A DNA stretch of 64,000 bases from Alphaproteobacteria bacterium (GTDB taxonomy: Bacteria; Pseudomonadota; Alphaproteobacteria; UBA9219). Shown one piece after another: positions 4,430-57,390 of this stretch. The notes under the pieces were generated by a model that was given only the letters and a program-made list of their open reading frames with translations, did not search any database and had not been told where the DNA came from. Each line of letters starts with the position of its first letter. The stretch's first letter is position 1. The position numbers and the translations under genes are program-made. The DNA is taken from the NCBI GenBank assembly GCA_009779745.1, contig WRDR01000006.1, positions 3,469 through 67,468 of the forward strand, written 5' to 3'.

Positions 4430-5246
4430 ATGAAAAAAGTAATGTTGGTGTTAGTTGTAGGACTATTATTAAGTGCCTGCTCTAGTGCTAGGATAGATAG
4501 TACTGCTAACATGTGCTATAAAACTATTACTACTTGTGCAGGGGCTCCTATAAATTATGGTGCTGATGGATGCATGGGAATAAGAAATCCTTATGCTGCA
4601 GCAGTTGTTCTAAATTATACTATGGCTGGCGGAGGCGGAGGCGGAACTCCAACAGGGCAAGGAGGAGGAGGAGGAAGCACTGCATTGTTCACCAATGATA
4701 GTATTGCCGATATTAGAATAGCCAGAGGAGGCAATATCGCTAGTGATGCTCAAACTGTTACCGGAACACTTACTTTTAATGCGGGCACCACATTATACGC
4801 CTTTGTAGGCGGAGGAGGCGGATATGACTGGTCAGCAGGAGGGGCTGGTTGGTTCGGTGGCAATTCTGGACACAGGGGGGGGGGCAGGAGGTTATAATGC
4901 TGCTGAGAGTGTTCAGGCAATCGGCTATGGATCCCGATTTAGAGGCGGGCATAATGGAACTAATTCGTACGGTGGAAGCGGATTGTTGGGAGGAGCCGGA
5001 AAGTCGACCGGAGATGGGGCAGGATATAATGGCGGAGGAGGATTCGGCAGTGGGGGAGGCTCAAACGGAGAAGCAGGAGGCTCAAACGGAGGGAATGGGT
5101 TGGGTGCCAGCGGAGGTCTTGGAGCAAACAACTGGTCAGCCGCAACATCATGGCCCAACGGTCCCGGCAAACATAATGGAACAGGAAACGGCGGTTTGAT
5201 AATATTAAGATACGTCAGCCCGACAGGTGCTTGCTCGTTATATTAA
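4430..5246 (+). CDS. glycine-rich lipoprotein. The reading frame is interrupted at a G10 tract. Reading frame 2 (ORF 4430-4897) and frame 0 (ORF 4824-5246) join across the tract
   Basis: Lipobox 'LLLSAC' signal peptide followed by GGGG-rich repeats. The two overlapping ORFs share the 4824-4897 overlap that contains the poly-G. The C-terminus 'GLGANNWSAATSWP...GNGGLIILRYVSPTGAC' is paralogous to 53006-54367. Confidence 0.6.
4875..4884. repeat. homopolymeric G10 tract inside the glycine-rich lipoprotein gene, where the frame switches
   Basis: 'cacagggggggggcagg' counted directly in the sequence. Confidence 0.8.
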
Positions 5247-8461: not shown

Positions 8462-8709
8462 AGTACCTCGTACTGATTCTTTAAAAAGGAAACCCCAGAA
8501 TATAATTTCTTAACCATCTCTGCAAGTATAAATTAGATACCAGAATTCTGGCCTCTGGTATCTGGCATCTAACCCTGTCACCCAAAAGCAACTTTTGATT
8601 CCAACCGTTGCGGCTTTAAAATTCTCTCTTGATTAATTATGGTCAATTTTGCACATATATGCCTGTACGGTGTGTACAGTCGTATTCATACCATTATGGG
8701 GAAAATTTT

Positions 8710-9861
8710 ATGAAAAAATTTCTTTTAGCAACAACGGCTCTTGTTGGTTTTACTTTTTCATGCGAAGCTTTTGCTGCAGAATCTCTTCTTAAGGTTACTC
8801 TTGGCGGCAGCGTCGAGGTAGTCGGCGGCACTTATAAACAAAAACTAAACGATGACAGCAATACGGACTATGATTTTGCCTCTTTTTATACCCTCGACGT
8901 GAAGGCTGCCGGCAAAGCCGGTGGTTTTGATTGCGGTGCTGATTTCAGGTTTTCCAATACGGCTTCTTTCCCTAAATTCACGCCGAAAGACTCAAGTATT
9001 ACTCTGTCTCACGGCTATATATATATGTCCGGCTCTTTCGGCAAAATTCAGATAGGCGATCAGCGGGGCACCACCAGTTTGGCAGTAACTACTCCCTCCG
9101 TCGGCATGGGCCAGACAGAAGGACGTATCATTGATTTCCTAAGCAGCGACACATTCAGCAAGGTTTTTGTCAAGAGCGTTGATAAAAAAAATGGTACCAG
9201 CATTACTTATTATACTCCGAAATTAGGGAATGAGAATCACAAGATTCAGGCAGGCCTCACTTATGAACCGAAGATGTTCAGCGGCGGTGCAGATATAATT
9301 TCTAAGAAAAACGCTTACAAAAGCGTGATTAAGGCGGCAGCTGCTTATGACGGCAGCATTGATTTTGTTAAGCTGAATGCTTCTGCTCACATAGTTAACG
9401 GAGGAGGAAGAGCTGCGGGTTACGGTCTCAAGTCTCCTGTCAGCCTGCATTCCGGATTTACCGCTTGGGGGTTGGGGGCTAATGCTTCTGCTTACGGCGT
9501 GAAGATTGGCATCAACTACGAGGATTTCGGCAAATTCTTAGCTCCGGACATCGCAAATACCAAAGGACAGTATCGTATTGGAACCGGCATTGCTTACGAA
9601 CAGGATTGTTTCGGGGTGGCATTTAACTATATAACCGGTACGGCATATAATTTTGCGAAACTGCCTCCTGTTGATGCCAGCACTTTAACTCGCTTAAAAG
9701 GTTTTGATTCGTATGGAATCGGCGGAGTTTACAAATGGGCTCCGGGCTTGACTTCCAATGCGGATTTGGTGTTTTTCCAACAGCGCTTTACTGATGACAT
9801 TTCTTCTTCAGCAAAGGGGAGCGGGTATGTGTTCCTGCTCTCACAGAAGCTGGCGTTTTAA
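8710..9861 (+). CDS. outer-membrane porin-like beta-barrel protein
   Basis: Signal peptide 'MKKFLLATTALVGFTFSCEAFA', alternating beta-strand pattern and a C-terminal Phe ('SQKLAF'). RBS 'GGGGA' precedes the ATG at 8710. The ORF track's 8629 start is unlikely. Confidence 0.6.
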   Translation: MKKFLLATTALVGFTFSCEAFAAESLLKVTLGGSVEVVGGTYKQKLNDDSNTDYDFASFYTLDVKAAGKAGGFDCGADFRFSNTASFPKFTPKDSSITLSHGYIYMSGSFGKIQIGDQRGTTSLAVTTPSVGMGQTEGRIIDFLSSDTFSKVFVKSVDKKNGTSITYYTPKLGNENHKIQAGLTYEPKMFSGGADIISKKNAYKSVIKAAAAYDGSIDFVKLNASAHIVNGGGRAAGYGLKSPVSLHSGFTAWGLGANASAYGVKIGINYEDFGKFLAPDIANTKGQYRIGTGIAYEQDCFGVAFNYITGTAYNFAKLPPVDASTLTRLKGFDSYGIGGVYKWAPGLTSNADLVFFQQRFTDDISSSAKGSGYVFLLSQKLAF

Positions 9862-44215: not shown

Positions 44216-44302
44216 TGGTGCCCTGGAGAAGACTCGAACTTCCACGACCTTGCGATCGCTAGCACCTGAAGCTAGTGCGTCTACCAATTCCGCCACCAGG
44301 GC
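44216..44302 (-). tRNA. tRNA-Leu (anticodon CAG)
   Basis: 87 nt. Rev-comp GCCCTGGTGGCGGAATTGGTAGACGC...CTTCAGGT...GTTCGAGTC...CAGGGCACCA. Has a long variable arm, anticodon loop 'UUCAGGU' and an encoded CCA. Confidence 0.85.
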
Positions 44303-49156: not shown

Positions 49157-50692
49157 ATGCTCTCCTCCTCCCTCACAGTCGCCTTCGAAGGAACCTCTGC
49201 TTTTACAATCAATGTTCAGGTGCTGGTTTCCAGCGGGAAAGCAGTAATGAACATAGTTGGTTTACCGGACAAGGCTGTTGGCGAAAGTAAAGAACGGGTG
49301 CGCGCAGCTCTATTATCTATGGGAGTAGATTTGCCGTCAATACATATTTCTGTGAATTTGGCACCTGCGGATGTCATTAAAGAGGGCACTCATTTTGACT
49401 TACCCATAGCGGTTGCATTGTTGGGAGCTTTGGGAGTCGTGCCTCAGGAGACTGTTTCGGAGTATTTATTTTTAGGCGAATTAGGCTTGGACGGAAAAAT
49501 ATCTCAAGTGTCCGGAGTTCTGCCTGCCGCCATACACGCTAAAAGTTTGAGCAAAGGCATAATCTGTCCTCCTAATAACAGCGCAGAGGCTTTATGGGCA
49601 AGCGGAATTTCTGTTCTGGCTCCTCCTTCTTTAAAGGCTCTGGTCAGGCATTTTAAGGGCGAAGATATTCTTGTGCCTCCGGAGCAGTCTTTGAAATTGT
49701 CAACAATGTCGTATCCTGATTTGAGCGATATTAAGGGACAGGAGACAGCAAAACGAGTCTTGGAAATCGCAGCCGCCGGCGGTCATAATCTTCTGATGAC
49801 AGGACCTCCGGGTTCCGGCAAAAGCATGTTAGCCTCAAGATTAATCGGAATACTTCCTCCTATGGAGCCGGAAGAGGCTTTGGAAGTGTCTATGATACAC
49901 TCTGTTTCCGGAATGCTGGGGGAAGGGGGCATAGTTCATCAAAGACCGTTCAGAGATCCGCATCATTCTGCGTCTCTGCCCGCTCTGATAGGAGGAGGAC
50001 AGAAAGCGCGCCCCGGAGAAGTTTCTCTTGCGCACAACGGAGTTTTGTTTCTGGACGAGCTGCCTGAATTCCAAAGGTCAGCACTGGAAGCACTAAGACA
50101 GCCTATAGAGAGCGGGAAAGCAGTTGTAGCAAGAGCTAATAATCATGTTACATATCCTGCCAGATTTCAGCTAATTGCCGCAATGAATCCTTGCCGCTGC
50201 GGGTACATGAATGATGCGAAAAGGTCATGCGGAAAAGCCCCGAAGTGCGCCATAGATTATCAGTCTAAAATTTCAGGACCTATCTTTGACAGAATAGATT
50301 GCCACATAGAAGTGCCTGCAGTGAGTGCTATGGATTTAGGGCTGCCTTCCAATGCGGAAAGCTCTAAGGATATAGCGGCAAGAGTGATAAGAGCTAGGAA
50401 GATACAAAAAGAACGGTATGCGGAGATAGCGAAAAAGCATAATATGTCCAAATCGCAGCTGCCGAGAACAAATGCACTGGCGGACGGCAAGCTGCTGGAA
50501 GAAGCGGTGGCTATAAATGACGATGCCAGAGCGGTTTTAGTAAAGGCAGTGGATACATTGCAGCTATCTGCCAGAGGGTATCATCGTATTTTGAGAGTGG
50601 CAAGAACGCTTGCGGACTTGGAAGGCAAAGACACAGTGACAGGGTTTCATGTGTCTGAGGTCGTTAGTTACAGACAAATAAGAGCATCTTAA
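49157..50692 (+). CDS. comM: Mg-chelatase-like AAA+ ATPase YifB/ComM
   Basis: Walker A 'GPPGSGKSM' and a Lon-like N-terminal domain in a 511 aa ORF. Confidence 0.85.
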   Translation: MLSSSLTVAFEGTSAFTINVQVLVSSGKAVMNIVGLPDKAVGESKERVRAALLSMGVDLPSIHISVNLAPADVIKEGTHFDLPIAVALLGALGVVPQETVSEYLFLGELGLDGKISQVSGVLPAAIHAKSLSKGIICPPNNSAEALWASGISVLAPPSLKALVRHFKGEDILVPPEQSLKLSTMSYPDLSDIKGQETAKRVLEIAAAGGHNLLMTGPPGSGKSMLASRLIGILPPMEPEEALEVSMIHSVSGMLGEGGIVHQRPFRDPHHSASLPALIGGGQKARPGEVSLAHNGVLFLDELPEFQRSALEALRQPIESGKAVVARANNHVTYPARFQLIAAMNPCRCGYMNDAKRSCGKAPKCAIDYQSKISGPIFDRIDCHIEVPAVSAMDLGLPSNAESSKDIAARVIRARKIQKERYAEIAKKHNMSKSQLPRTNALADGKLLEEAVAINDDARAVLVKAVDTLQLSARGYHRILRVARTLADLEGKDTVTGFHVSEVVSYRQIRAS

Positions 50693-50702
50693 AAGGAGCA
50701 TG

Positions 50703-50858
50703 GAGTGTTTAGAGTGGAATTGTTAGTGATTGGCGGTTGCTGTACCCCCATTTGTCATTCCCGCGAAGGCGGGAATAGGGCAACAAACAAAAAGACTCAA
50801 AACTTCGCAGAGCGAAGTTTTTCAATAACTCCACACTCCACACTCCACATTTCACACT
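50703..50858. repeat. MITE-like composite repeat, copy 4 (GGCGGTTGCTGTACCCCCA, TGTCATTCCCGCGAAGGCGGGAAT, AAAACTTCGCAGAGCGAAGTTTTT, (CCACACT)x3)
   Basis: Shares its core and flanks with the copies at 27422, 31452 and 39115. Confidence 0.75.
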
Positions 50859-50879
50859 CAAAAACGAAAGAAAAACAAA

Positions 50880-52715
50880 GTGGAAGAAAACTTTAGAGCT
50901 TTTCTGGAAGAAATAAGAGACAGAATAACGCTGTCGCACGTGATAGGAAAATCAGTAAGACTGGTGCGTGCAGGCAGAGAGTACAAAAGCTGCTGTCCGT
51001 TTCATGAGGAAAAAACGCCTAGTTTTTACGTGAATGATGAGAAAAAATTCTACCATTGTTTTGGCTGCGGAGCGCACGGGGATATAGTAGGCTGGACTAT
51101 GAGGGTGAAGAACCTGAACTTCATAGAAGCTGTAGAAAGTTTGGCACTGGAAGCGGGGCTGCAAGTACCAAGAAAAAGCATAACTGATGACAGGCATTAT
51201 GAAAAAGAAAAACAGCTTTACAACATAACGGAAAAAGCAGCCGCATGGTTTGAAGAGCAGTTGTTTTCTGCGGAAGGAAAACAAGCGTTGACGTATCTGA
51301 GGGGCAGGGGGCTGAGTGACGAGGGCATAAAGAAATTTCATATAGGATATACGCCTGCAAGCGGACAAGCCTTCATCAGCAAGATGAAGCAAAATGGTTT
51401 TGCAAATAAAGAACTTTTAGAGCTTGGACTGATTAAGCGGTCGGAAAATTCGGAAGAGTATTACAGTTTTTTCAGAAACAGAATAATGTTTCCGGTCGTA
51501 GACAAAAGAGGGCGTCCCATAGCTTTCGGCGCAAGAATATTAGGCGATGGAATGCCTAAATATTTGAACTCTCCTGACAGCCCCCTGTTCCGCAAAGGCA
51601 ATCTGCTGTACGGACTGTCAAGGGCGCGTACTGCCGCATCTCAGGGGCACCCGATAATAGTCGTAGAAGGTTATATGGACGTTATATCTCTGGTTGAAAG
51701 CGGGTACGCCGGAGCAGTTGCGCCGTTAGGAACTGCTCTGACTGAAGCACAAATGGAAACGCTTTGGAAGCTGCTGCCTGCAGCGGAATACAAAAACCCG
51801 CGGATAGACTATACGCCGGTACTGTGCTTTGACGGAGACGAAGCCGGAGTCAAAGCTGCCGAACGTTCTGTAACCAGAGCTTTGCCGTTGTTAGCCTCAG
51901 ACCACTCATTCAGAATTGCTAAAATCACCGGAGCCAAAGACCCGGACGAGCTTATAAGAAAGGTTGGAAAAACTGCTTTTGATGCTATACTGAAACAGGC
52001 ACTTCCCATAGCGGATATGGTATGGCAAATGTCGTTAAGCAACAGAAGTATCAGAACGCCGGAAGATGCAGGCAGTTTTTTGAAAGCGATAAAAAGCAAA
52101 ATAGCGTTGATTAACGATAAGGAGCTGCGGAATCTTTACTGGCTGGATTTAAAGGGCAGGTATGACGAATTTTTGAAAAATAATTTCGGACGCAGCGACA
52201 GCATAAAACACAATACGGCAACAGAACCTTCCATAGTAAGAACCCTGCCTGGCGATAAGAATTACAAAAGGGAAAGAGGCATACTGGCTATAATTCTGAA
52301 TCACCCTGAGATTTACGATGACTTCGCGGAAACTATCGGAGTTATGGAGTTTACGTCTAAAGATTTTATTTCTTTGAGAGACGATATAGTGTCGTATATG
52401 GCAAGCCATGAAAGCGGGGTTCCTGCGCCTGAAGAGCTGATACGGGACATGATGCGCGCAGGCGGTTCTGATTTTGATTTTAGCAGGAAATCTTTGATAG
52501 AAGAAATGCTGAATCCGAAAACTATGTTCGGAGAGCTTTCCGGTGCGCGCAAGGAAGCGGATTCGGAGCAGGCGCGGCTTTCAATGAATGCGTTGATACA
52601 ATCTATAGAGCAGGACAAAATGAATCTTGAATATGAGAAGGCAAAAGAGGCATTTAAGAACAATCCGTCAGAAGAAAACGCCGCCCGTCTTTTGTCCTTT
52701 CCGGGCAGGCGGTGA
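50880..52715 (+). CDS. dnaG: DNA primase
   Basis: CHC2 zinc finger 'CCPFHEEKTPSFYV...CFGCGAHG' and Toprim 'VVEGYMDVISL' in a 611 aa ORF. Confidence 0.9.
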   Translation: MEENFRAFLEEIRDRITLSHVIGKSVRLVRAGREYKSCCPFHEEKTPSFYVNDEKKFYHCFGCGAHGDIVGWTMRVKNLNFIEAVESLALEAGLQVPRKSITDDRHYEKEKQLYNITEKAAAWFEEQLFSAEGKQALTYLRGRGLSDEGIKKFHIGYTPASGQAFISKMKQNGFANKELLELGLIKRSENSEEYYSFFRNRIMFPVVDKRGRPIAFGARILGDGMPKYLNSPDSPLFRKGNLLYGLSRARTAASQGHPIIVVEGYMDVISLVESGYAGAVAPLGTALTEAQMETLWKLLPAAEYKNPRIDYTPVLCFDGDEAGVKAAERSVTRALPLLASDHSFRIAKITGAKDPDELIRKVGKTAFDAILKQALPIADMVWQMSLSNRSIRTPEDAGSFLKAIKSKIALINDKELRNLYWLDLKGRYDEFLKNNFGRSDSIKHNTATEPSIVRTLPGDKNYKRERGILAIILNHPEIYDDFAETIGVMEFTSKDFISLRDDIVSYMASHESGVPAPEELIRDMMRAGGSDFDFSRKSLIEEMLNPKTMFGELSGARKEADSEQARLSMNALIQSIEQDKMNLEYEKAKEAFKNNPSEENAARLLSFPGRR

Positions 52716-52799
52716 GTGTCGATGTATTCCCCTTTTGTCCTTTCCGCACAGAATAATAAAAAATTATAGCATTTACCGAAAATCTGATTTATAACTATC

Positions 52800-53005
52800 A
52801 ACGTGGCAGATGACTACTGCCATGAGGGTTAGACTCCTCGTACCAAGTTGCTCTACCAGTCGCAAACAAGGAGCGTGAAAATTTGCACCCCCAACCTTCG
52901 GTTGGGGGGCTGCAAAATAAAGCGGTCTGTCCGCCGAATATGCACACTATCTTGGTATAGGGTCTAACCTCCAACCGCCTCTAGTCAAGGCGAACGGAGG
53001 CTGTT
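52800..53005 (+). promoter_or_regulatory. structured 5' leader of the glycine-rich gene. Contains a UUCG-capped 9-bp helix (CCCCCAACC-UUCG-GGUUGGGGG) and a helix pairing CCUCC (52968-52972) with the SD GGAGG (52996-53000)
   Basis: Helices found by eye, with no covariation data. Function inferred. Confidence 0.3.
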
Positions 53006-54367
53006 ATGAATGTGAAGCGTGAAATCGAAAGCGGCATACACAAAGGTGCTGCGTTATATGCTTATGTAGGCGGAGGAGGCTCGGGCGGCCCGAGCGGCGG
53101 ATGGGCTGGCTGTGGAGCTGGGTGGAAAGGTGGGACAATGGTCTGTATGCCACAGGTAGGTGTTAGGAGTACTACATGCACCGGACCTCTTGCCGGCTCT
53201 CGGTTCGTGGGAGGTACTCCCGGAGTGGTGAGGTATGACGGAACGATTGTCGCCAACCCGGGCGGAAGAGGAGGAAGAGGAATGTCGGGTGGAGCAGCAG
53301 CATCTGCTGGCACGGGAGGAGGCGGCGGCGGATTCGGCAGCGGAGGGGGAGGAGGAAGAGCAGCAGGAGGCTCAAGCGGAGGAAATGGCGGAGGAAGCGG
53401 CGTGGGTCTTGGAGCAAATAACTGGGTAAGTGCAACAACGTGGCCCAGTGCTGCCGGCGGAACGAGTACATACGGAGGCAACGGCGGTCTTATAATGCTA
53501 AACTACATCACGCCGACCGGACAATGTTTGTTGGCTGAGGTGGTGAATGGTGCTTGCGGGACTGCTGTCGGAGTCGCAAGTGCTTCGGCACCGACTGCAA
53601 ACCGCTGCATCTCGGGAATCGCACTCGAAGCCAACGGCGATGAGGACGAAGGAACCACTTGGACATGGACGTGTTCTGGAGTCAACGGTGGCACCAGTCC
53701 AACCTGCACGGCACCTCGTATAGTCAACGGTACCTGCGGAAATCTTGACGGAGTCGCAACTGCCGCTGCTCCGGAAAATGCGGCTGCAGTATTAGAGGAA
53801 GAAATTGAAATAACGCCTGCAAAGACACTCTGTGCAACCGGTGCTGCAACCACAGTCACGGATACCGGAACAGCATTCACTTGGAGCTGCAGCGGCATAA
53901 ATGGCGGAACTGCCAGTACTACTTGCTCTGCTCCTAAGATGATAGACGGTGTGTGCGGTGCTTCTGCTTATCCTAATATTACTACCGGAGTAACTTCTGC
54001 GCCAACGGCAAATCTTTGCTCTGCCGGAAATCCTTCTACAACTAATCCGCCTGCTGCAGGAGGAAACACAACCGCAAGTACTGCCGCACCAAATACTGCC
54101 ATTAACTATAGTTGGTCATGCACAGGGTTGTACGGCGGAACTAACACGAACTGCTTGGCTTTAAGGCGCGTGAACGGAAGCTGCGGCACTGCTACAAGCG
54201 GCAGCAGCAGCACGCCTCCTACTACTAACCTTTGCGCTAACGGAAGAGCAAGCGGCGTGACAACAAACACCTCGACATATACTTGGTCTTGTTATGGTAT
54301 AAACAACGGAACGAATGCGAATTGCTCTAAGCCTAGGGGGGGATTTGATATATACAACCCTTTCTAG
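53006..54367 (+). CDS. glycine-rich protein paralogous to 4430-5246, with four tandem roughly 60-70 aa Cys-rich modules (VNGxCG...AP...NLC...TW(T/S)CxGxNGGT...C.AP) and no signal peptide
   Basis: 'GLGANNWVSATTWP...GNGGLIMLNYITPTGQC' aligns to copy 1. Repeat modules found by eye. Confidence 0.65.
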   Translation: MNVKREIESGIHKGAALYAYVGGGGSGGPSGGWAGCGAGWKGGTMVCMPQVGVRSTTCTGPLAGSRFVGGTPGVVRYDGTIVANPGGRGGRGMSGGAAASAGTGGGGGGFGSGGGGGRAAGGSSGGNGGGSGVGLGANNWVSATTWPSAAGGTSTYGGNGGLIMLNYITPTGQCLLAEVVNGACGTAVGVASASAPTANRCISGIALEANGDEDEGTTWTWTCSGVNGGTSPTCTAPRIVNGTCGNLDGVATAAAPENAAAVLEEEIEITPAKTLCATGAATTVTDTGTAFTWSCSGINGGTASTTCSAPKMIDGVCGASAYPNITTGVTSAPTANLCSAGNPSTTNPPAAGGNTTASTAAPNTAINYSWSCTGLYGGTNTNCLALRRVNGSCGTATSGSSSTPPTTNLCANGRASGVTTNTSTYTWSCYGINNGTNANCSKPRGGFDIYNPF

Positions 54368-54695
54368 TTATTGCAACTGTTAAATAAATAATGGGGCGGT
54401 TTTGTGCGGTGGTGAGCTTTACATCACCCAACGGTCAGTGTTTGATTGATAGGAAATAGATAAGAGAAATGCTTGCAAAAAAAATCTAGCCGGAGCAGGG
54501 AGGTGCTCCGGCATTGATCTGCAAACGGTGAAAGCGGGAGGAAATCGCTTCACCTCTTCTACTTTAGCAGAACCATATAATAGCGAAAAACCACCCCCCA
54601 AGTCAAGGAAATGTTCGTTATTTGTTCTTTTATTTTTTGTTATTTTAGGCAAAAAAAGGCTTGCTTTTTCTTATTTTCACTTTCCGCTTTTCACA

Positions 54696-55130
54696 TTACG
54701 GAAGCACATACACGCCGCACAAAGAGCCGCCGCCTGCAACAGGCACTCTGCCTGAGCATGTAGTAGGCTCCCAGCCGCGATACCTCATGCACTCTGTGAC
54801 GATAAGAGCAGGCGACTGAACGCAAGTCTCTGTCTCTTTATCCATTTGCACGGTAGTGCTTGTTTGCACTAGACGCTGTTTGTCTTTTTGAAACTGTATG
54901 GCAGTGTCTCTGGGAATATTAGTCGGGAAAATACCGCAGTGGCACTGGCTGAGATCGAATTCAAGCTTCTGCTGTAATTTGTCCGGAGGCATGAGAATAT
55001 TGGGCTCGCTTATAGGTCTCCAGAACTGAACAACAGAGTCGCCCATTTTCCAGATACTATCGCTTTCACAAGCAGTAACTAACAGTGCAGTTGCCGCAAC
55101 AGTACATATAGTAGTAAGTGAACGCCTCAT
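54696..55130 (-). CDS. putative lipoprotein, Cys-rich
   Basis: Signal peptide with lipobox 'LLVTAC'. Start chosen at 'MRRSL' because GGAG lies upstream. Confidence 0.45.
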   Translation of the reverse strand: MRRSLTTICTVAATALLVTACESDSIWKMGDSVVQFWRPISEPNILMPPDKLQQKLEFDLSQCHCGIFPTNIPRDTAIQFQKDKQRLVQTSTTVQMDKETETCVQSPALIVTECMRYRGWEPTTCSGRVPVAGGGSLCGVYVLP

Positions 55131-55226
55131 GCAAATCTCCATTTTTAGACACTCTACAAGTAAAGCAATATACTCAATAGCTTAAAAAAGATTTAACATA
55201 CACAACTTCACACTCCACACTTCTAA

Positions 55227-55925
55227 CTATAACAATCCATTGTGTTTGAAGCTGAAAAACGAACCGGAACTCATAATCATATGGTCTATTACGGTTATGT
55301 CTACGGCTAAACAAGACTGTACCAGCTGCTTTGTTATTTCTTCATCTTCCTTGCTGGGCTGCACATCGCCGGACGGGTGATTATGTGCCAGCACTATCGA
55401 AGACGCATTCAACTCTACTCCTTTTTTCACTATCTCTTTTATCAGTATCGGTGCCCTGTTCGGCATTCCAGCTTCTTTTATTTCGTCTTTGATGATGCGT
55501 CCTTTTGTGTCTATGAACAGCACTCTCACATGCTCTACGGCTTCATGCCCTATGCTCATTCTTAAATAGTCTATTATGCGCTGCCAGCTGTTGAACACGT
55601 CTTTGTCGAGTATTTCTTCTTTTGCTGCGCGCAGTGCTATTGTACTTACTATCAGCAAAGCTCCTATGACAGCCTCGGATAGTCCGGAGGCTTTCAGTCT
55701 TTCCGGCGTTGCGCTAAGCAGTTTCCACAGCCCGCCGTATTCTTGCAATAGCTTTTTTGCCAGCGGCTTTACATCTTGTCTTGGTATAGAGGCGAACAAG
55801 AGGCATTCTAAAATCTCATAGTCCAGCAAGCCGTCGCCGTGAGTGATGAATAATCTCTTCCGCAATCTGTCTCTGTGCCCTTTTTGGAAATCTTTTAGGG
55901 CATGGTCTTTTGGTGATTTATTCAT
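55227..55925 (-). CDS. radC: RadC-like JAB/MPN-domain protein (UPF0758)
   Basis: JAMM motif 'HNHPSGDVQPSKED' and an N-terminal HhH region. Confidence 0.8.
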   Translation of the reverse strand: MNKSPKDHALKDFQKGHRDRLRKRLFITHGDGLLDYEILECLLFASIPRQDVKPLAKKLLQEYGGLWKLLSATPERLKASGLSEAVIGALLIVSTIALRAAKEEILDKDVFNSWQRIIDYLRMSIGHEAVEHVRVLFIDTKGRIIKDEIKEAGMPNRAPILIKEIVKKGVELNASSIVLAHNHPSGDVQPSKEDEEITKQLVQSCLAVDITVIDHMIMSSGSFFSFKHNGLL

Positions 55926-55982
55926 GGTGGAGCTGCAAAGTTGAATGTAGAGAATTCATACTAAGCAGCAATTCACATTTTT

Positions 55983-57260
55983 TCAACCATTTATCTTTGT
56001 AAATGCAGACTTGCCTCCGGACAGCGAGAATCTTCTCTCCGGCTTTGGCTCCATACATTTGTTCCAATAGCCCGGAGCCTGCAGGTTAGCCAGTCCTTCG
56101 TTTACATTTTTTAACTCTATGCCGCTATTTTGCAGAACAACCGCCAATACAGGTGCTAGGCTGCGCATAGTGTTGAGATAAGAGTCATCAGTAGCATCTT
56201 TGAGGATATGTTCGTCAGTCGTGGAGTTGCTTGGAGTTTTATATCCCAGACTCGCGCCTGTAAAGTAGAAGTTTCCTTTATCATACCCCTCATTTGTAGC
56301 AACCCTGCCAAGACATTTATTTTCAGCGCAGAGCCTTATATAGGCTTTGTATTCGTCATCATTTTTCAAAACAAGTCTTGCCGCCAGATTTGTTGCTCTG
56401 TCCGCAATACCTGTTTTAGCTATCATACGGTTGTCAAGAGATCTTGTGCTGATTACTACATAAATCTCATCGTCTTTTAACCCTTGCTGAAGCATCAAAG
56501 CCAGAGGAGAAGCCATGGAGTCTGAATAACGGTGCCCGTTCAAAACTTTAGGATACCCTCCTATTCCCGGTATAATACAAGCAGCTTCGAATCTATCCAG
56601 AGTGTCGGTCTCGTCTGCCGGCTGTATCCCCAGAAACTCCAGTTTCATAGTGTCTAAATTAGCCGCCGCGAAATAAATGGGCACTCTGTTTTCTTTTAAG
56701 GCGTCAAAATGCAGCTCGTTTTCTACGAGATCTTTTGCGTATTTCAAGTCCATAGGAGGAGCAAAATTACCGTTTGAACCGATAACCTCTTTTGTCGCTA
56801 ACGCCCATATTACAGACTTCATTCTTTTCATATCTAAAAATTTAGTGCCGGCCATGTCATGGAATATTATAGGAGAAGTAAGCCTTGCATCTCCGGTTAC
56901 AGCGAACAAGGACAGCGGAGCACCTATAGATGTTGCGGAAATCTTATCGGCAACGGCGGCAATGCCTTTTGCGTTTCTGTAAGCAATTATCTCCCAGCTT
57001 TCTTGTTCTTTGTTGAGGCTCTTTACTGCAAGAGCGAAATCGCCGTTATGTACTACGGTTAACTGCGCCAAACGCCCGAGAGACTCGAACGCGGATAATG
57101 CGCCGGCTCCTATGACGCCGCGCATTCCGCCGCCTTCGAGTACTACGTTTATCTTTCTGGTATCCGCTGGTTTTTGTTTTAAACCGGTGTTCGCTTCGAC
57201 TATACGGTTTATTATGGCGTATTCCGTTAAAATTTTTCCTGACATGATAATACTCTTCAA
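55983..57260 (-). CDS. patatin-like phospholipase domain protein
   Basis: Oxyanion-hole 'LEGGGMRGVIGAG' and a G-x-S-x-G-like 'SATSIGA' in a 425 aa ORF. Confidence 0.5.
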   Translation of the reverse strand: MKSIIMSGKILTEYAIINRIVEANTGLKQKPADTRKINVVLEGGGMRGVIGAGALSAFESLGRLAQLTVVHNGDFALAVKSLNKEQESWEIIAYRNAKGIAAVADKISATSIGAPLSLFAVTGDARLTSPIIFHDMAGTKFLDMKRMKSVIWALATKEVIGSNGNFAPPMDLKYAKDLVENELHFDALKENRVPIYFAAANLDTMKLEFLGIQPADETDTLDRFEAACIIPGIGGYPKVLNGHRYSDSMASPLALMLQQGLKDDEIYVVISTRSLDNRMIAKTGIADRATNLAARLVLKNDDEYKAYIRLCAENKCLGRVATNEGYDKGNFYFTGASLGYKTPSNSTTDEHILKDATDDSYLNTMRSLAPVLAVVLQNSGIELKNVNEGLANLQAPGYWNKCMEPKPERRFSLSGGKSAFTKING

Positions 57261-57390
57261 ATTTGATTTATATATTCATTATAACAAATAACAGTTGCTA
57301 CTATGTTGCTAATTATAGCTGCCGGCACTACTTTTATCAACTATTATTACTTTAACCAACTCCAAACTTTAAGCATAAATTAAGTAGTTT

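What the first reader, a model, noticed from the sequence alone, without database searches (positions are those of the whole stretch)
52800..54367. Second glycine-rich paralog has four Cys-rich tandem modules, no signal peptide and a leader hairpin over its SD
The 453-aa ORF shares the Gly-rich core and the 'GLGANNW...TWP...GNGGLI(M/I)L.Y(I/V)(T/S)PTG(Q/A)C' block with the lipoprotein at 4430. It lacks the N-terminal roughly 115 aa that carry the lipoprotein signal, and it adds four tandem modules, each with four Cys (consensus VNGxCG-x10-20-AP-x3-NLC-x15-25-TW(T/S)CxG(I/V)NGGT-x3-4-C-x-AP). I do not recognise this module. The 290-nt region between dnaG and this gene contains a very stable UUCG-tetraloop helix (52884-52905). 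Immediately before the start codon a symmetric helix, CCUCC-AAC-CGCCU-CUAGUCA-AGGCG-AAC-GGAGG, pairs the Shine-Dalgarno GGAGG with an upstream CCUCC. This looks like an RBS-sequestering regulatory element, such as a thermosensor or riboswitch expression platform. The gene displaces rpoD from its usual place after dnaG.
Basis: partly seen in the sequence, partly recalled or inferred. Interest (0 to 1): 0.7.

Follow-up and report, generated by a model that had tools for sequence, protein, structure and literature searches.

The report
Signal-less Cys-repeat protein behind structured leader
An uncultured alphaproteobacterium carries an intact gene that joins a shortened glycine-rich domain to four copies of a widespread but unnamed four-cysteine module, has no export signal, and sits behind the most tightly folded stretch of the 64-kb window, which keeps its ribosome-binding site paired; the regulatory role of that fold could not be tested.

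Summary
The 453-aa ORF (53006-54367), the 290-nt gap after dnaG, the paralogy of the Gly-rich part (52% identity), four 4-Cys modules, the missing signal peptide and the SD-pairing helix (52968-53000, -14.5 kcal/mol) are all real.

Corrections:
- The "UUCG tetraloop" is a 9-bp stem with a UUC triloop at 52888-52908.
- The "lipoprotein at 4430" is split by a frameshift in a G10 tract.
- The ORF lacks about 105 aa, including the first two blocks of the Gly-rich domain, so it begins inside that domain.

The Cys module matches no Pfam or NCBIfam model, PDB sequence or PDB fold. It is still not unique: a profile finds 5,436 protein clusters, mostly in proteins with a signal peptide or prepilin leader.

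The segment 52826-52975 is the most structured 150-nt stretch in the window (z about -6.5), but equally on both strands. No Rfam family passes threshold. The predicted SD pairing does not melt by 50 C, and no low-energy fold frees the SD. All available copies of the leader are identical, so covariation cannot be tested.

Verdict: a real, resident, rearranged surface-type gene with a constitutively occluded RBS. The thermosensor or riboswitch reading is unsupported but not excluded. Interest is moderate to low.

The parts
50880..52715 (+). dnaG (primase), the upstream neighbour. rpoD does not follow it here.
   Evidence: ORF. Pfam Zn_ribbon_DnaG/DNAG_N/Toprim on the called gene. No rpoD in the window.
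52716..53005 (+). 290-nt intergenic leader. It is not repeated elsewhere in the window, and the consensus scan finds no sigma-70-type promoter.
   Evidence: Whole-leader fold -95.6 kcal/mol, z -3.8.
52802..52824 (+). 5' hairpin GUGGCAG-AUGACUA-CUGCCAU
   Evidence: -9.0 kcal/mol, z -3.9. Present in all the context folds.
52826..52970 (.). Four-way-junction element closed by a long-range imperfect inverted repeat (GGGUUAGAC.UCC.UCGUACCAAG / CUUGGUAUAGGGUCUAACCU). It is the most structured 150 nt of the window, and the strand is ambiguous.
   Evidence: -60.7 kcal/mol, z -5.3. Rank 1 (+, z -6.5) and rank 2 (-, z -6.4) of 1,278 windows. Inverted repeat I5.
52884..52914 (.). Strong hairpin: core of 9 bp, CCCCCAACC/GGUUGGGGG (52888-52908), with a UUC triloop and a UGCA/UGCA extension. 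No U-tract follows on the + strand.
   Evidence: -20.4 kcal/mol, z -3.8. I3 and I1. Not listed as a terminator-like site on either strand.
52921..52935 (-). Small hairpin GGCGGACAGACCGCU, followed on the minus strand by UUAUUUUG. It is terminator-like only on the minus strand.
52900..52984 (+). Sub-threshold match to Rfam sRNA-Xcc1 (RF02221). It is not accepted as a member.
   Evidence: 33.4 bits against a gathering score of 53; E 4e-4 for a 451-nt search. The implied closing stem is 21 kcal/mol worse than the MFE.
52968..53000 (+). SD-sequestering helix: CCUCC (52968-72) pairs with GGAGG (52996-53000), and CGCCU (52976-80) with AGGCG (52988-92), around a 3x3 AAC/AAC internal loop. In the full-length MFE an alternative anti-SD, GCCUCU (52977-82), pairs with the SD instead.
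53006..54367 (+). 453-aa ORF, identical to NCBI MAG protein FWE93_03485 (hypothetical protein, Alphaproteobacteria bacterium).
   Evidence: The region is identical in three assemblies. GC3 is 0.446, equal to the window mean.
53006..53533 (+). N-terminally truncated 'GLGANNW-type' glycine-rich domain (aa 1-176). It lacks the first two conserved blocks and the signal peptide found in homologues.
   Evidence: Alignments A1 and A4. No Pfam hit. AF2 pLDDT <50.
53543..53713 (+). Cys module 1 (aa 180-236)
   Evidence: 44.3 bits to the module profile. pLDDT >90.
53723..53932 (+). Cys module 2 (aa 240-309), with an acidic insertion after the first AP
   Evidence: 8.0 + 38.2 bits.
53942..54160 (+). Cys module 3 (aa 313-385), with a long Thr/Pro/Ala-rich insertion before the W-x-C
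   Evidence: 26.3 bits. The insertion has low pLDDT.
54170..54331 (+). Cys module 4 (aa 389-442), the most canonical copy
   Evidence: 50.7 bits. The single-module AF2 model has pLDDT 90.5 and is mostly beta-strand, with one short helical turn.
4430..5246 (+). Paralogous lipoprotein gene (signal plus lipobox LSAC), interrupted by a +1 frameshift in a G10 tract at 4875-4884. G9 or G12 would give a 271- or 272-aa protein.
   Evidence: Only the 155-aa truncated product is on record, in two MAGs.

Best explanation
The locus is a genuine, long-resident, rearranged protein gene of an uncultured termite-gut-type alphaproteobacterium. Its product is a chimera. The first part is the last two-thirds of a glycine-rich 'GLGANNW...GNGGL(I/V)IL.Y..C' domain, which elsewhere sits at the C-terminus of signal-bearing proteins. 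This is followed by four copies of a roughly 53-aa four-cysteine, mostly beta-strand module. That module is very common, though unnamed, in exported, pilin-like and glycoside-hydrolase-linked surface proteins of CPR bacteria, DPANN archaea and other bacteria.

Shown:
- the domain make-up;
- the truncation relative to homologues;
- the absence of an N-terminal export signal;
- host-like codon composition;
- a perfect SD and ATG;
- an upstream segment that is the most strongly folded in the window and pairs the SD in every low-energy fold.

Inferred:
- The missing signal is a by-product of the 5' rearrangement that also separated dnaG from rpoD.
- The modules are disulfide-stabilised spacer or binding units meant for the cell exterior. 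The protein is therefore either exported by a non-Sec route or is a poorly functional derivative.
- The leader acts mainly as a constitutive brake on translation initiation (SD occlusion by two redundant anti-SD sequences) rather than as a temperature- or ligand-operated switch.
For: - The ORF is intact, and the region is identical in three assemblies.
- GC3 is 0.446, equal to the window mean, and codon choice is host-like.
- GGAGG lies 5 nt before the ATG.
- Paralogy is 52% identity.
- In alignment A4 the ORF starts at the third conserved block of the domain. The paralogue and two metagenomic homologues carry two more blocks plus signal peptides, and all three end right after the C-x-L motif.
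- Module membership is shown for all four copies.
- The family comprises 5,436 clusters with up to 45 copies per protein.
- Partner domains include PF21722, prepilin N_methyl, GH5 and GH26.
- 48 of 62 homologues have an N-terminal hydrophobic segment.
- AF2 gives pLDDT >90 for the modules.
- SD pairing probability is 0.88-0.99 at 37 C and >=0.8 at 50 C, with two alternative anti-SDs within 3 kcal/mol of each other.
- The gene ranks highest for SD occlusion among 26 genes.
- The structure z-score is about -6.5, rank 1 of 1,278 windows.
Against: - There is no expression, localisation or structure-probing data.
- Sixteen module cysteines in a protein with no export signal is paradoxical. It fits a non-functional remnant as well as an unknown export route.
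- The Gly-rich part could not be modelled (pLDDT <50) and matches no family HMM. Whether a truncated domain can fold is unknown.
- Thermodynamic models ignore co-transcriptional folding, ligands and proteins, so a switch cannot be excluded.
- The element folds equally well on the minus strand, so it may not act as RNA on the mRNA at all.
- The transcription start is unknown, and no promoter was predicted.
Confidence: 0.45

Rival explanations
1. This is a true cis-regulatory RNA. The four-way junction (52826-52970) is a sensor (ligand aptamer, thermometer or protein-binding site), and the SD helix is its expression platform. It switches translation of a functional, non-classically exported surface protein.
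For: - The structure is exceptional for the window.
- The 3' strand of the closing helix overlaps the first anti-SD (CCU of CCUCC), as in riboswitch P1/expression-platform overlaps.
- GGUUGGGGG (52900-08) can pair either with CCCCCAACC or with CCUCCAACC (I3 and I4), which gives an attenuator-like 1:2/2:3/3:4 layout.
- The SD is strongly occluded.
Against: - No Rfam family reaches threshold.
- There is no predicted melting up to 50 C.
- The alternative 2:3 fold is 21 kcal/mol worse and still leaves the SD paired through the second anti-SD.
- No homologous leader exists to test covariation.
- The leader of an alphaproteobacterial module-protein gene is unrelated.
- The fold is equally good on the opposite strand.
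Confidence: 0.2
2. The structured segment is a DNA-level element (a MITE-like or transposon remnant with terminal inverted repeats, or another palindromic insertion), or it belongs to a minus-strand transcript (an antisense sRNA ending at the hairpins). On this view its pairing with the SD is incidental.
For: - Imperfect terminal inverted repeats of about 20 nt (GGTTAGAC...GTACCAAG / CTTGGTA...GTCTAACC) flank about 100 nt.
- The fold is the same on both strands (z -6.5 and -6.4).
- The hairpins carry U-rich tails only on the minus strand (and direct reading).
- The locus is rearranged: dnaG-rpoD is broken, and a 15-bp direct repeat sits at the dnaG 3' end.
- The best Rfam near-hit is an integron-cassette RNA.
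Against: - There is only one copy in 64 kb.
- There is no match in plasmids.
- No target-site duplication is seen at the element's edges (direct reading).
- Three assemblies run through the element without breaking.
- No minus-strand promoter was predicted nearby.
Confidence: 0.2
3. The ORF is a decaying gene fragment (functionally a pseudogene). It lost its signal peptide and domain start, and its still-open frame and occluded RBS have no adaptive meaning.
For: - The domain is truncated, and the domain order is reversed relative to all homologues seen.
- There is no export signal despite 16 module cysteines.
- The only paralogue is itself frameshifted in both MAGs on record, which suggests the family is eroding in this lineage.
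- Modules 2 and 3 carry long insertions and score low.
Against: - 453 codons remain open, which would happen by chance at about 1e-8 (my estimate from base composition).
- All eight invariant module positions are kept in all four copies.
- The SD and its spacing are optimal.
- GC3 is fully ameliorated, which implies a long residence during which a dead gene should have collected stops.
Confidence: 0.15

Closest known systems
Unnamed 'vnGaCG...aP..nLC..G...W.W.C.G.nGG...C' four-Cys tandem repeat of exported proteins in CPR/Patescibacteria, DPANN archaea, Bdellovibrionota and Proteobacteria (for example MAG proteins WCX74_04325, WC520_02255, GC131_02975)
   Same: - All eight invariant positions (G3, C5, G6, P17, C22, W39, C41, C52) are present in all four copies.
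- The copies are arranged in tandem.
- The predicted module is confidently mostly beta-strand.

   Different: - Homologues normally carry a signal peptide or prepilin leader and 5-45 near-canonical 53-aa copies.
- This protein has no signal and only four copies, two of them with 15-25-aa insertions.
- Here the repeats lie downstream of a Gly-rich domain rather than upstream of it.

Pfam PF21722 Gly_rich_2 (glycine-rich domain, C-terminal in pilin-like CPR proteins; weakly similar to the Pam3 phage tail fibre)
   Same: - The composition is similar, with strand-plus-GGGGG blocks.
- The final strand G(G/A)G(I/L)(V/I)(I/V)(I/L).Y is shared.
- It co-occurs with the same Cys module in one protein.

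   Different: - The HMM does not hit the ORF, its paralogue or two homologues, even at E<=10.
- The profile-profile match covers only the last strand (68% probability).
- The GLGANNW..P motif and the terminal Cys are absent from PF21722 members.
RBS-sequestering RNA thermometers (ROSE, fourU) and riboswitch expression platforms
   Same: The SD is paired in an imperfect hairpin with a 3x3 internal loop directly upstream of the start codon.
   Different: - No match to any Rfam family was reported at E<=10 other than five unrelated chance-level hits.
- The helix is too stable, with no predicted opening up to 50 C.
- The anti-SDs are redundant.
- No conserved aptamer has been demonstrated.
Rfam RF02221 sRNA-Xcc1 (integron-cassette RNA upstream of symE in Xanthomonas)
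   Same: The overall shape is similar: a 9-bp closing stem enclosing two hairpins, about 85 nt, lying just upstream of a gene.
   Different: - The score is 33.4 bits against a gathering score of 53.
- The closing stem is not part of the favoured fold.
- There is no symE, integrase or attC context.
Poly-G phase-variable surface lipoprotein genes (contingency loci of Neisseria, Haemophilus, Campylobacter); relevant to the paralogue
   Same: A G10 run inside the coding region sets the reading frame of a lipoprotein gene. It is the only G or C run of 8 or more bases, or A or T run of 10 or more, in the 64 kb.
   Different: No length polymorphism was observed: only the out-of-frame form is on record. 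It may simply be a pseudogene.

Membership tests
Unnamed four-Cys ~53-aa tandem module family | Invariant G3, C5, G6, P17, C22, W39, C41, C52 spaced as in the consensus vnGaCGsang....aPttnLCsaGtas.v.g.gpWsWtCaGsngGttasCsa | tested here: met
   All four copies match a profile built without the query (i-Evalues 8e-16, 1.7e-4 plus 6.5e-14, 3.4e-10 and 8e-18). Invariant columns are from A2.
Unnamed four-Cys ~53-aa tandem module family | Carried by exported proteins (signal peptide or prepilin leader) | tested here: not met
   48 of 62 homologues have an N-terminal hydrophobic segment, and 8 have a prepilin motif. The query has none.
Pfam PF21722 Gly_rich_2 | Score at or above the gathering threshold (24.3 bits) against the family HMM | tested here: not met
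   No hit for the ORF, the paralogue or two homologues even at E<=10. P0058 and P0016 score 75 bits.
Pfam PF21722 Gly_rich_2 | Profile-profile homology over the whole domain | tested here: inconclusive
   hhalign of A4 against A3 gives 68% probability, E 4.9e-5, over only 42 columns at the C-terminal strand.
GLGANNW-type Gly-rich C-terminal domain (paralogue at 4430, L014, L015) | Complete set of conserved blocks, from V..Y.M.GGGGGG to GLGANNW..P..GN(G/A)GL(I/V)IL.Y...C.L, at the protein's C-terminus | tested here: not met
   The last blocks are present at 52% identity. The first two blocks are missing, and the domain is internal rather than C-terminal.
RNA thermometer (ROSE / fourU type) | SD helix that opens within the physiological temperature range | tested here: not met
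   Mean SD pairing probability is 0.97 at 20 C, 0.88 at 37 C and 0.80 at 50 C in the 52800-53035 context, and 0.99 falling to 0.96 in the short context. This is a model only.
RNA thermometer (ROSE / fourU type) | Match to a curated family model | tested here: not met
   No such family appears among the matches at E<=10.
Known riboswitch classes | Aptamer matching an Rfam covariance model | tested here: not met
   At gathering threshold only tRNA-Leu was found in the window. No riboswitch family appears at E<=10 in 52650-53100.
Riboswitch / attenuator (generic) | Two mutually exclusive folds of comparable energy, one of which frees the SD | tested here: not met
   The two lowest folds both pair the SD (-86.5 and -83.8 kcal/mol). 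The alternative 2:3 pairing is -65.3 and the SD stays paired.
Riboswitch / structured cis-regulator (generic) | Structure conserved with covariation in orthologous leaders | not testable with these tools
   The three assemblies are identical. The closest DnaG in GTDB representative genomes is 46% identical and has rpoD downstream. No orthologue was found in metagenome or protein searches.
Rfam RF02221 sRNA-Xcc1 | Bit score at or above the gathering score (53) | tested here: not met
   33.4 bits.
Intrinsic terminator (for the hairpin at 52888-52908) | GC-rich stem followed by a U-tract on the transcribed strand | tested here: not met
   The hairpin is not listed on the + strand, and the sequence after the stem is CUGCAAAAUAAAG.
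Bacterial lipoprotein (paralogue at 4430) | Signal peptide with a lipobox Cys and an uninterrupted ORF | tested here: inconclusive
   MKKVMLVLVVGLLLSAC is present, but the ORF is frameshifted at the G10 tract.

The most novel reading that the evidence does not exclude
The 52826-53000 element is a new class of cis-acting RNA: a four-way-junction sensor whose closing helix competes with a double anti-SD clamp. It gates translation of a signal-less, disulfide-module protein that leaves the cell by an unrecognised route. Together with the poly-G-switched lipoprotein paralogue, this would form a two-gene, differently gated surface-variation system in a gut symbiont.
Probability: 0.1. Interest if true: 0.65.

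Novelty: new variant of a known kind. Interest (0 to 1): 0.35.

Why it matters
- **An unannotated module family.** The work draws attention to a very large protein module family: 5,436 clusters at 50% identity, up to 45 copies per protein, a confident AF2 model, and no PDB sequence or fold match. The family decorates exported and pilin-like proteins of CPR bacteria and DPANN archaea. It deserves a family model and a solved structure.
- **An unusual family member.** This gene is the odd one out, with a truncated partner domain, reversed domain order and no signal peptide. If it is functional, it points to either a non-Sec export route or a cytoplasmic use of a module that otherwise looks extracellular.
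- **A candidate RNA element.** The leader is the strongest structural outlier in the 64 kb. It is a reasonable candidate for a new RNA element, but nothing beyond thermodynamics supports a regulatory role today.

Tried and rejected
- **Rfam.** The whole window at gathering threshold gave only tRNA-Leu. The leader at E<=10 gave only a sub-threshold sRNA-Xcc1 match and noise. I rejected membership.
- **Leader repeated in the window, or a decayed copy of the paralogue's 5' end.** There is no DNA or protein similarity to support either.
- **Search for orthologous leaders.**
  - Exact-protein contigs were all identical.
  - A DnaG-based scan of GTDB genomes found a best match of 46% identity, with rpoD downstream.
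  - A metagenome scan with the Gly-domain alignment found three distant loci with unrelated architecture.
  - A protein search with the N-terminal 180 aa returned nothing, apparently swamped by Gly-rich low-complexity candidates (my reading).
  - A search with the C-terminal block returned only short fragments.
  - The leader of the alphaproteobacterial homologue P0013 is unrelated.
- **Curated families.** Pfam, NCBIfam and PHROGs gave nothing for the ORF.
- **Phage or plasmid origin.** There was no tblastn hit in phages and no blastn hit of the leader in plasmids. GC3 equals the host's, so recent horizontal transfer is rejected.
- **Upstream small ORFs.** GUG at 52875 opens a 31-codon ORF and UUG at 52883 a 25-codon ORF; both end at or near the anti-SD. 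I considered them as a translational-coupling device. I did not pursue this, because the starts are poorly placed or buried in the helix and there is no conservation to test.
- **False gene start.** One apparent rival for 'most occluded SD' (9827) turned out to be a false start inside a porin-like ORF.
- **Failed run.** A first genome-wide z-scan timed out. A coarser one succeeded.
Full report
**1. What is in the sequence**

The window comes from an uncultured alphaproteobacterium. The ORF product is 100% identical to NCBI 'MAG: hypothetical protein FWE93_03485 [Alphaproteobacteria bacterium]'. The same DNA occurs in two ENA assemblies and one JGI metagenome, with no difference across the overlaps (51833-54655 in the two short contigs, 50006-57367 in the long one).

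dnaG occupies 50880-52715. The next gene is the 453-codon ORF at 53006-54367, which leaves exactly 290 nt between them. An in-frame TAG at 52982-84 rules out a longer N-terminus. GGAGG (52996-53000) sits 5 nt before the ATG.

**2. The protein**

*Glycine-rich part.*
- Residues 1-176 align with the product of the 4430 locus at 52% identity, including GLGANNW..(T/S)WP and GNGGLI(M/I)L.Y..PTG.C.
- The 4430 locus is not one ORF. A run of ten G at 4875-4884 shifts the frame, giving 4430..4897 and 4824..5246.
- Removing one G or adding two gives a 271- or 272-aa lipoprotein with the signal MKKVMLVLVVGLLLSAC.
- Public collections hold only the 155-aa truncated product, from two MAGs.
- I aligned the ORF with the repaired paralogue and two metagenomic homologues, L014 and L015, both of which have signal peptides. 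The ORF begins at the third conserved block of the domain (…LYAYVGGGG). It lacks the blocks V..Y.M.GGGGGG and GGGGGS…A.A.GG as well as everything N-terminal to them.
- In all three homologues the domain is C-terminal and the protein ends just after C-x-L. In this ORF the domain instead runs on into the Cys modules.
- The domain hits no Pfam, NCBIfam or PHROG model.
- Its similarity to PF21722 (Gly_rich_2) is limited to the last strand: hhalign gives 68% probability.
- AlphaFold2 could not model it (pLDDT <50).

*Cys modules.*
- A profile built from 193 modules of other proteins finds four copies at aa 180-236, 240-309, 313-385 and 389-442. Copies 2 and 3 carry insertions.
- The consensus is vnGaCGsangkslssaPttnLCsaGtasavsgsgpWsWtCaGsngGttasCsa. 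The invariant positions are G3, C5, G6, P17, C22, W39, C41 and C52.
- The first protein search returned 65 relatives. They come from Paceibacterota, Pacearchaeota, Micrarchaeia, Bdellovibrionales and Alphaproteobacteria, at 30-45% identity over the module region.
- An exhaustive profile search of 1.84 billion representative proteins gives 5,436 clusters at E<=1e-3, 3,193 at E<=1e-10 and 846 at E<=1e-30. Some proteins carry up to 45 copies.
- No Pfam or NCBIfam model covers the module, even in a protein with 29 copies. No PDB sequence matches it.
- AF2 models the modules with pLDDT >90. A single module is mostly beta-strand, with one short helical turn, and reaches pLDDT 90.5.
- Partner domains in relatives include PF21722, the prepilin N-methylation motif, GH5 and GH26 hydrolases, cohesin and Ig-like repeats.
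- 48 of 62 relatives that start with Met have an N-terminal hydrophobic segment, and 8 have a prepilin motif. The family therefore belongs to the cell exterior.
- The query has no such segment. The only mildly hydrophobic stretch, AALYAYV, is a strand of the Gly-rich domain by homology.

*Resident or foreign.*
- GC3 of the ORF is 0.446, identical to the mean of 46 long ORFs in the window. Its Gly, Thr, Ala and Cys codon choices resemble the host's.
- No phage record encodes a relative.
- The gene is therefore not a recent import.
- No rpoD is present in the 64 kb. The closest DnaG relative found (46% identity) has rpoD directly downstream.

**3. The leader**

*Individual helices.*
It folds at -14.5 kcal/mol (z -3.7 alone; z -0.9 in a 56-nt context).
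- The 'UUCG tetraloop' is really CCCCCAACC/GGUUGGGGG (52888-52908) with a UUC triloop, plus a 4-bp UGCA/UGCA extension (-20.4 kcal/mol, z -3.8).
- A 5' hairpin lies at 52802-24.
- A long-range imperfect inverted repeat (52826-47 with 52950-70) closes a four-way junction (-60.7 kcal/mol, z -5.3).

*How unusual the structure is.*
- I scanned the whole window in 150-nt steps on both strands. The segment 52826-52975 ranks first (+, z -6.5) and second (-, z -6.4) of 1,278 windows, whose mean z is -0.4 with sd 1.2.
- The register was chosen to fit the element, which gives it some advantage.
- The equal score on the two strands means the data do not say which strand, if either, acts as RNA.

*SD occlusion.*
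- SD pairing probability is 0.88-0.99 at 37 C, depending on context. It is still 0.80-0.96 at 50 C.
- In the full-length MFE the SD pairs with a second anti-SD, GCCUCU (52977-82).
- Enforcing the only evident competitor, GGUUGGGGG with CCUCCAACC, costs 21 kcal/mol and still leaves the SD paired. This competitor is also the closing stem of the sub-threshold sRNA-Xcc1 match.
- Among SD-bearing long ORFs in the window, this gene has the most occluded SD once a false start at 9827 is removed.

*What the leader is not, on present evidence.*
- The consensus scan finds no sigma-70-like promoter in the gap.
- The hairpins have U-rich tails only on the minus strand.
- Rfam gives nothing above threshold. 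The best near-hit is RF02221 at 33.4 bits against a gathering score of 53. That family lies upstream of symE in integron cassettes (bioRxiv 10.1101/2025.06.18.660453), a context that is absent here.
- The leader is not repeated in the window and has no match in plasmids.

**4. Interpretation**

The evidence supports a real, translated-looking gene: the frame is open, the SD is perfect, codon usage matches the host, and all module signature residues are kept. The gene has been rearranged. It starts inside one domain, and its domain order is the reverse of every relative seen.

The loss of the signal peptide is most simply explained by that rearrangement, which also coincides with the broken dnaG-rpoD linkage.

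The modules almost certainly evolved for the oxidising exterior. The protein is therefore either exported by a route that needs no N-terminal signal or is a compromised derivative. I cannot decide between these two.

The leader is a genuine structural outlier that keeps the SD paired. Its modelled behaviour is that of a fixed clamp, not a thermometer or a two-state switch, and conservation cannot be assessed.

I give 0.45 to 'rearranged functional surface-type gene with a constitutive RBS clamp'. I give 0.2 to a true riboregulator, 0.2 to a DNA-level or minus-strand element whose SD pairing is incidental, and 0.15 to a decaying fragment.

**5. Novelty and score**

The module family is large, unannotated and structurally unmatched, but this gene is only one atypical member of it. 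The architecture (partial Gly-rich domain followed by modules, with no signal) is new among the relatives examined. The RNA is a candidate only.

Interest is 0.35, and I class the finding as a new variant of a known kind.

Noticed in passing
window 4875-4884 (within 4430-5246): A G10 homopolymer frameshifts the paralogous lipoprotein gene. It is the only G or C run of 8 or more bases, or A or T run of 10 or more, in the 64 kb. It sits in a gene family that otherwise seldom uses GGG for glycine (6 of 94 Gly codons in the 453-aa ORF). G9 or G12 would restore a 271- or 272-aa lipoprotein. It is a candidate phase-variation switch, or a pseudogene.
   Followed up: partly
window 52689-52703 and 52732-52746: A 15-bp direct repeat, CTTTTGTCCTTTCCG, lies 43 nt apart and straddles the dnaG stop codon. 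Both copies can encode LLSFP. This suggests a small duplication or insertion that changed the C-terminal end of DnaG (…LLSFPGRR* against a possible ancestral …LLSFPHRIIKNYSIYRKSDL*).
   Followed up: no
window 52921-52935 and 52884-52914, minus strand: Two consecutive hairpins in the leader are followed by U-rich tails only when read on the minus strand (GGCGGACAGACCGCU-UUAUUUUG, and the 9-bp hairpin followed by AAAUUUUC). This looks like tandem terminators for an unannotated minus-strand transcript antisense to the leader. No minus-strand promoter was predicted nearby.
   Followed up: partly
window 52875-52968 and 52883-52960: Two small upstream ORFs lie in the leader. GUG opens a 31-codon ORF, and UUG opens a 25-codon ORF preceded by AAGGAG at 52868-73. 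Both end at or just before the anti-SD CCUCC. Termination there would unwind the SD clamp, so translational coupling is conceivable, but this is untested and there is no conservation data.
   Followed up: no
window 54489-54512 (minus strand); gene 54696-55142 (-): A strong intrinsic terminator (GCCGGAGCACCTCCCTGCTCCGGC followed by TAGATTTTTT) ends a 148-aa putative lipoprotein gene (…ALLVTAC…) that converges on the 453-aa ORF. The 453-aa ORF has no plus-strand terminator of its own and may rely on this hairpin.
   Followed up: no
window 1-64000; L004 3125-5605: No rpoD is present anywhere in the window. The closest DnaG relative recovered (46% identity, a MAG labelled Bdellovibrionales) keeps rpoD directly after dnaG. 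The lineage has no close relative among the GTDB species representatives that were scanned.
   Followed up: partly
window 44216-44302 (-): tRNA-Leu(CAG) is the only Rfam match above threshold in the window.
   Followed up: yes
window 8629-9861 (+): A 410-aa ORF with a signal-like N-terminus and a C-terminal …LSQKLAF looks like an outer-membrane porin. An internal ATG at 9827 with a GGAG motif mimics a gene start whose SD is fully paired.
   Followed up: partly
L014 81-1625 and 1663-3138; L015 25-2139: Metagenomic proteins that carry the same GLGANNW-type C-terminal Gly-rich domain have a different Cys-rich repeat upstream (…C.NGQVLSG…GKA.CVDPSPGVTV…). In L014 two such genes lie in tandem. The Gly-rich domain therefore combines with several kinds of Cys-repeat stalks.
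   Followed up: no
P0002, P0008, P0014, P0022 (C-termini): Several module proteins end with a shared motif, P(S/T)FGG.CP, preceded by a proline run. This may be a C-terminal sorting or anchoring signal. The motif is absent from the window's protein, which ends …KPRGGFDIYNPF.
   Followed up: no
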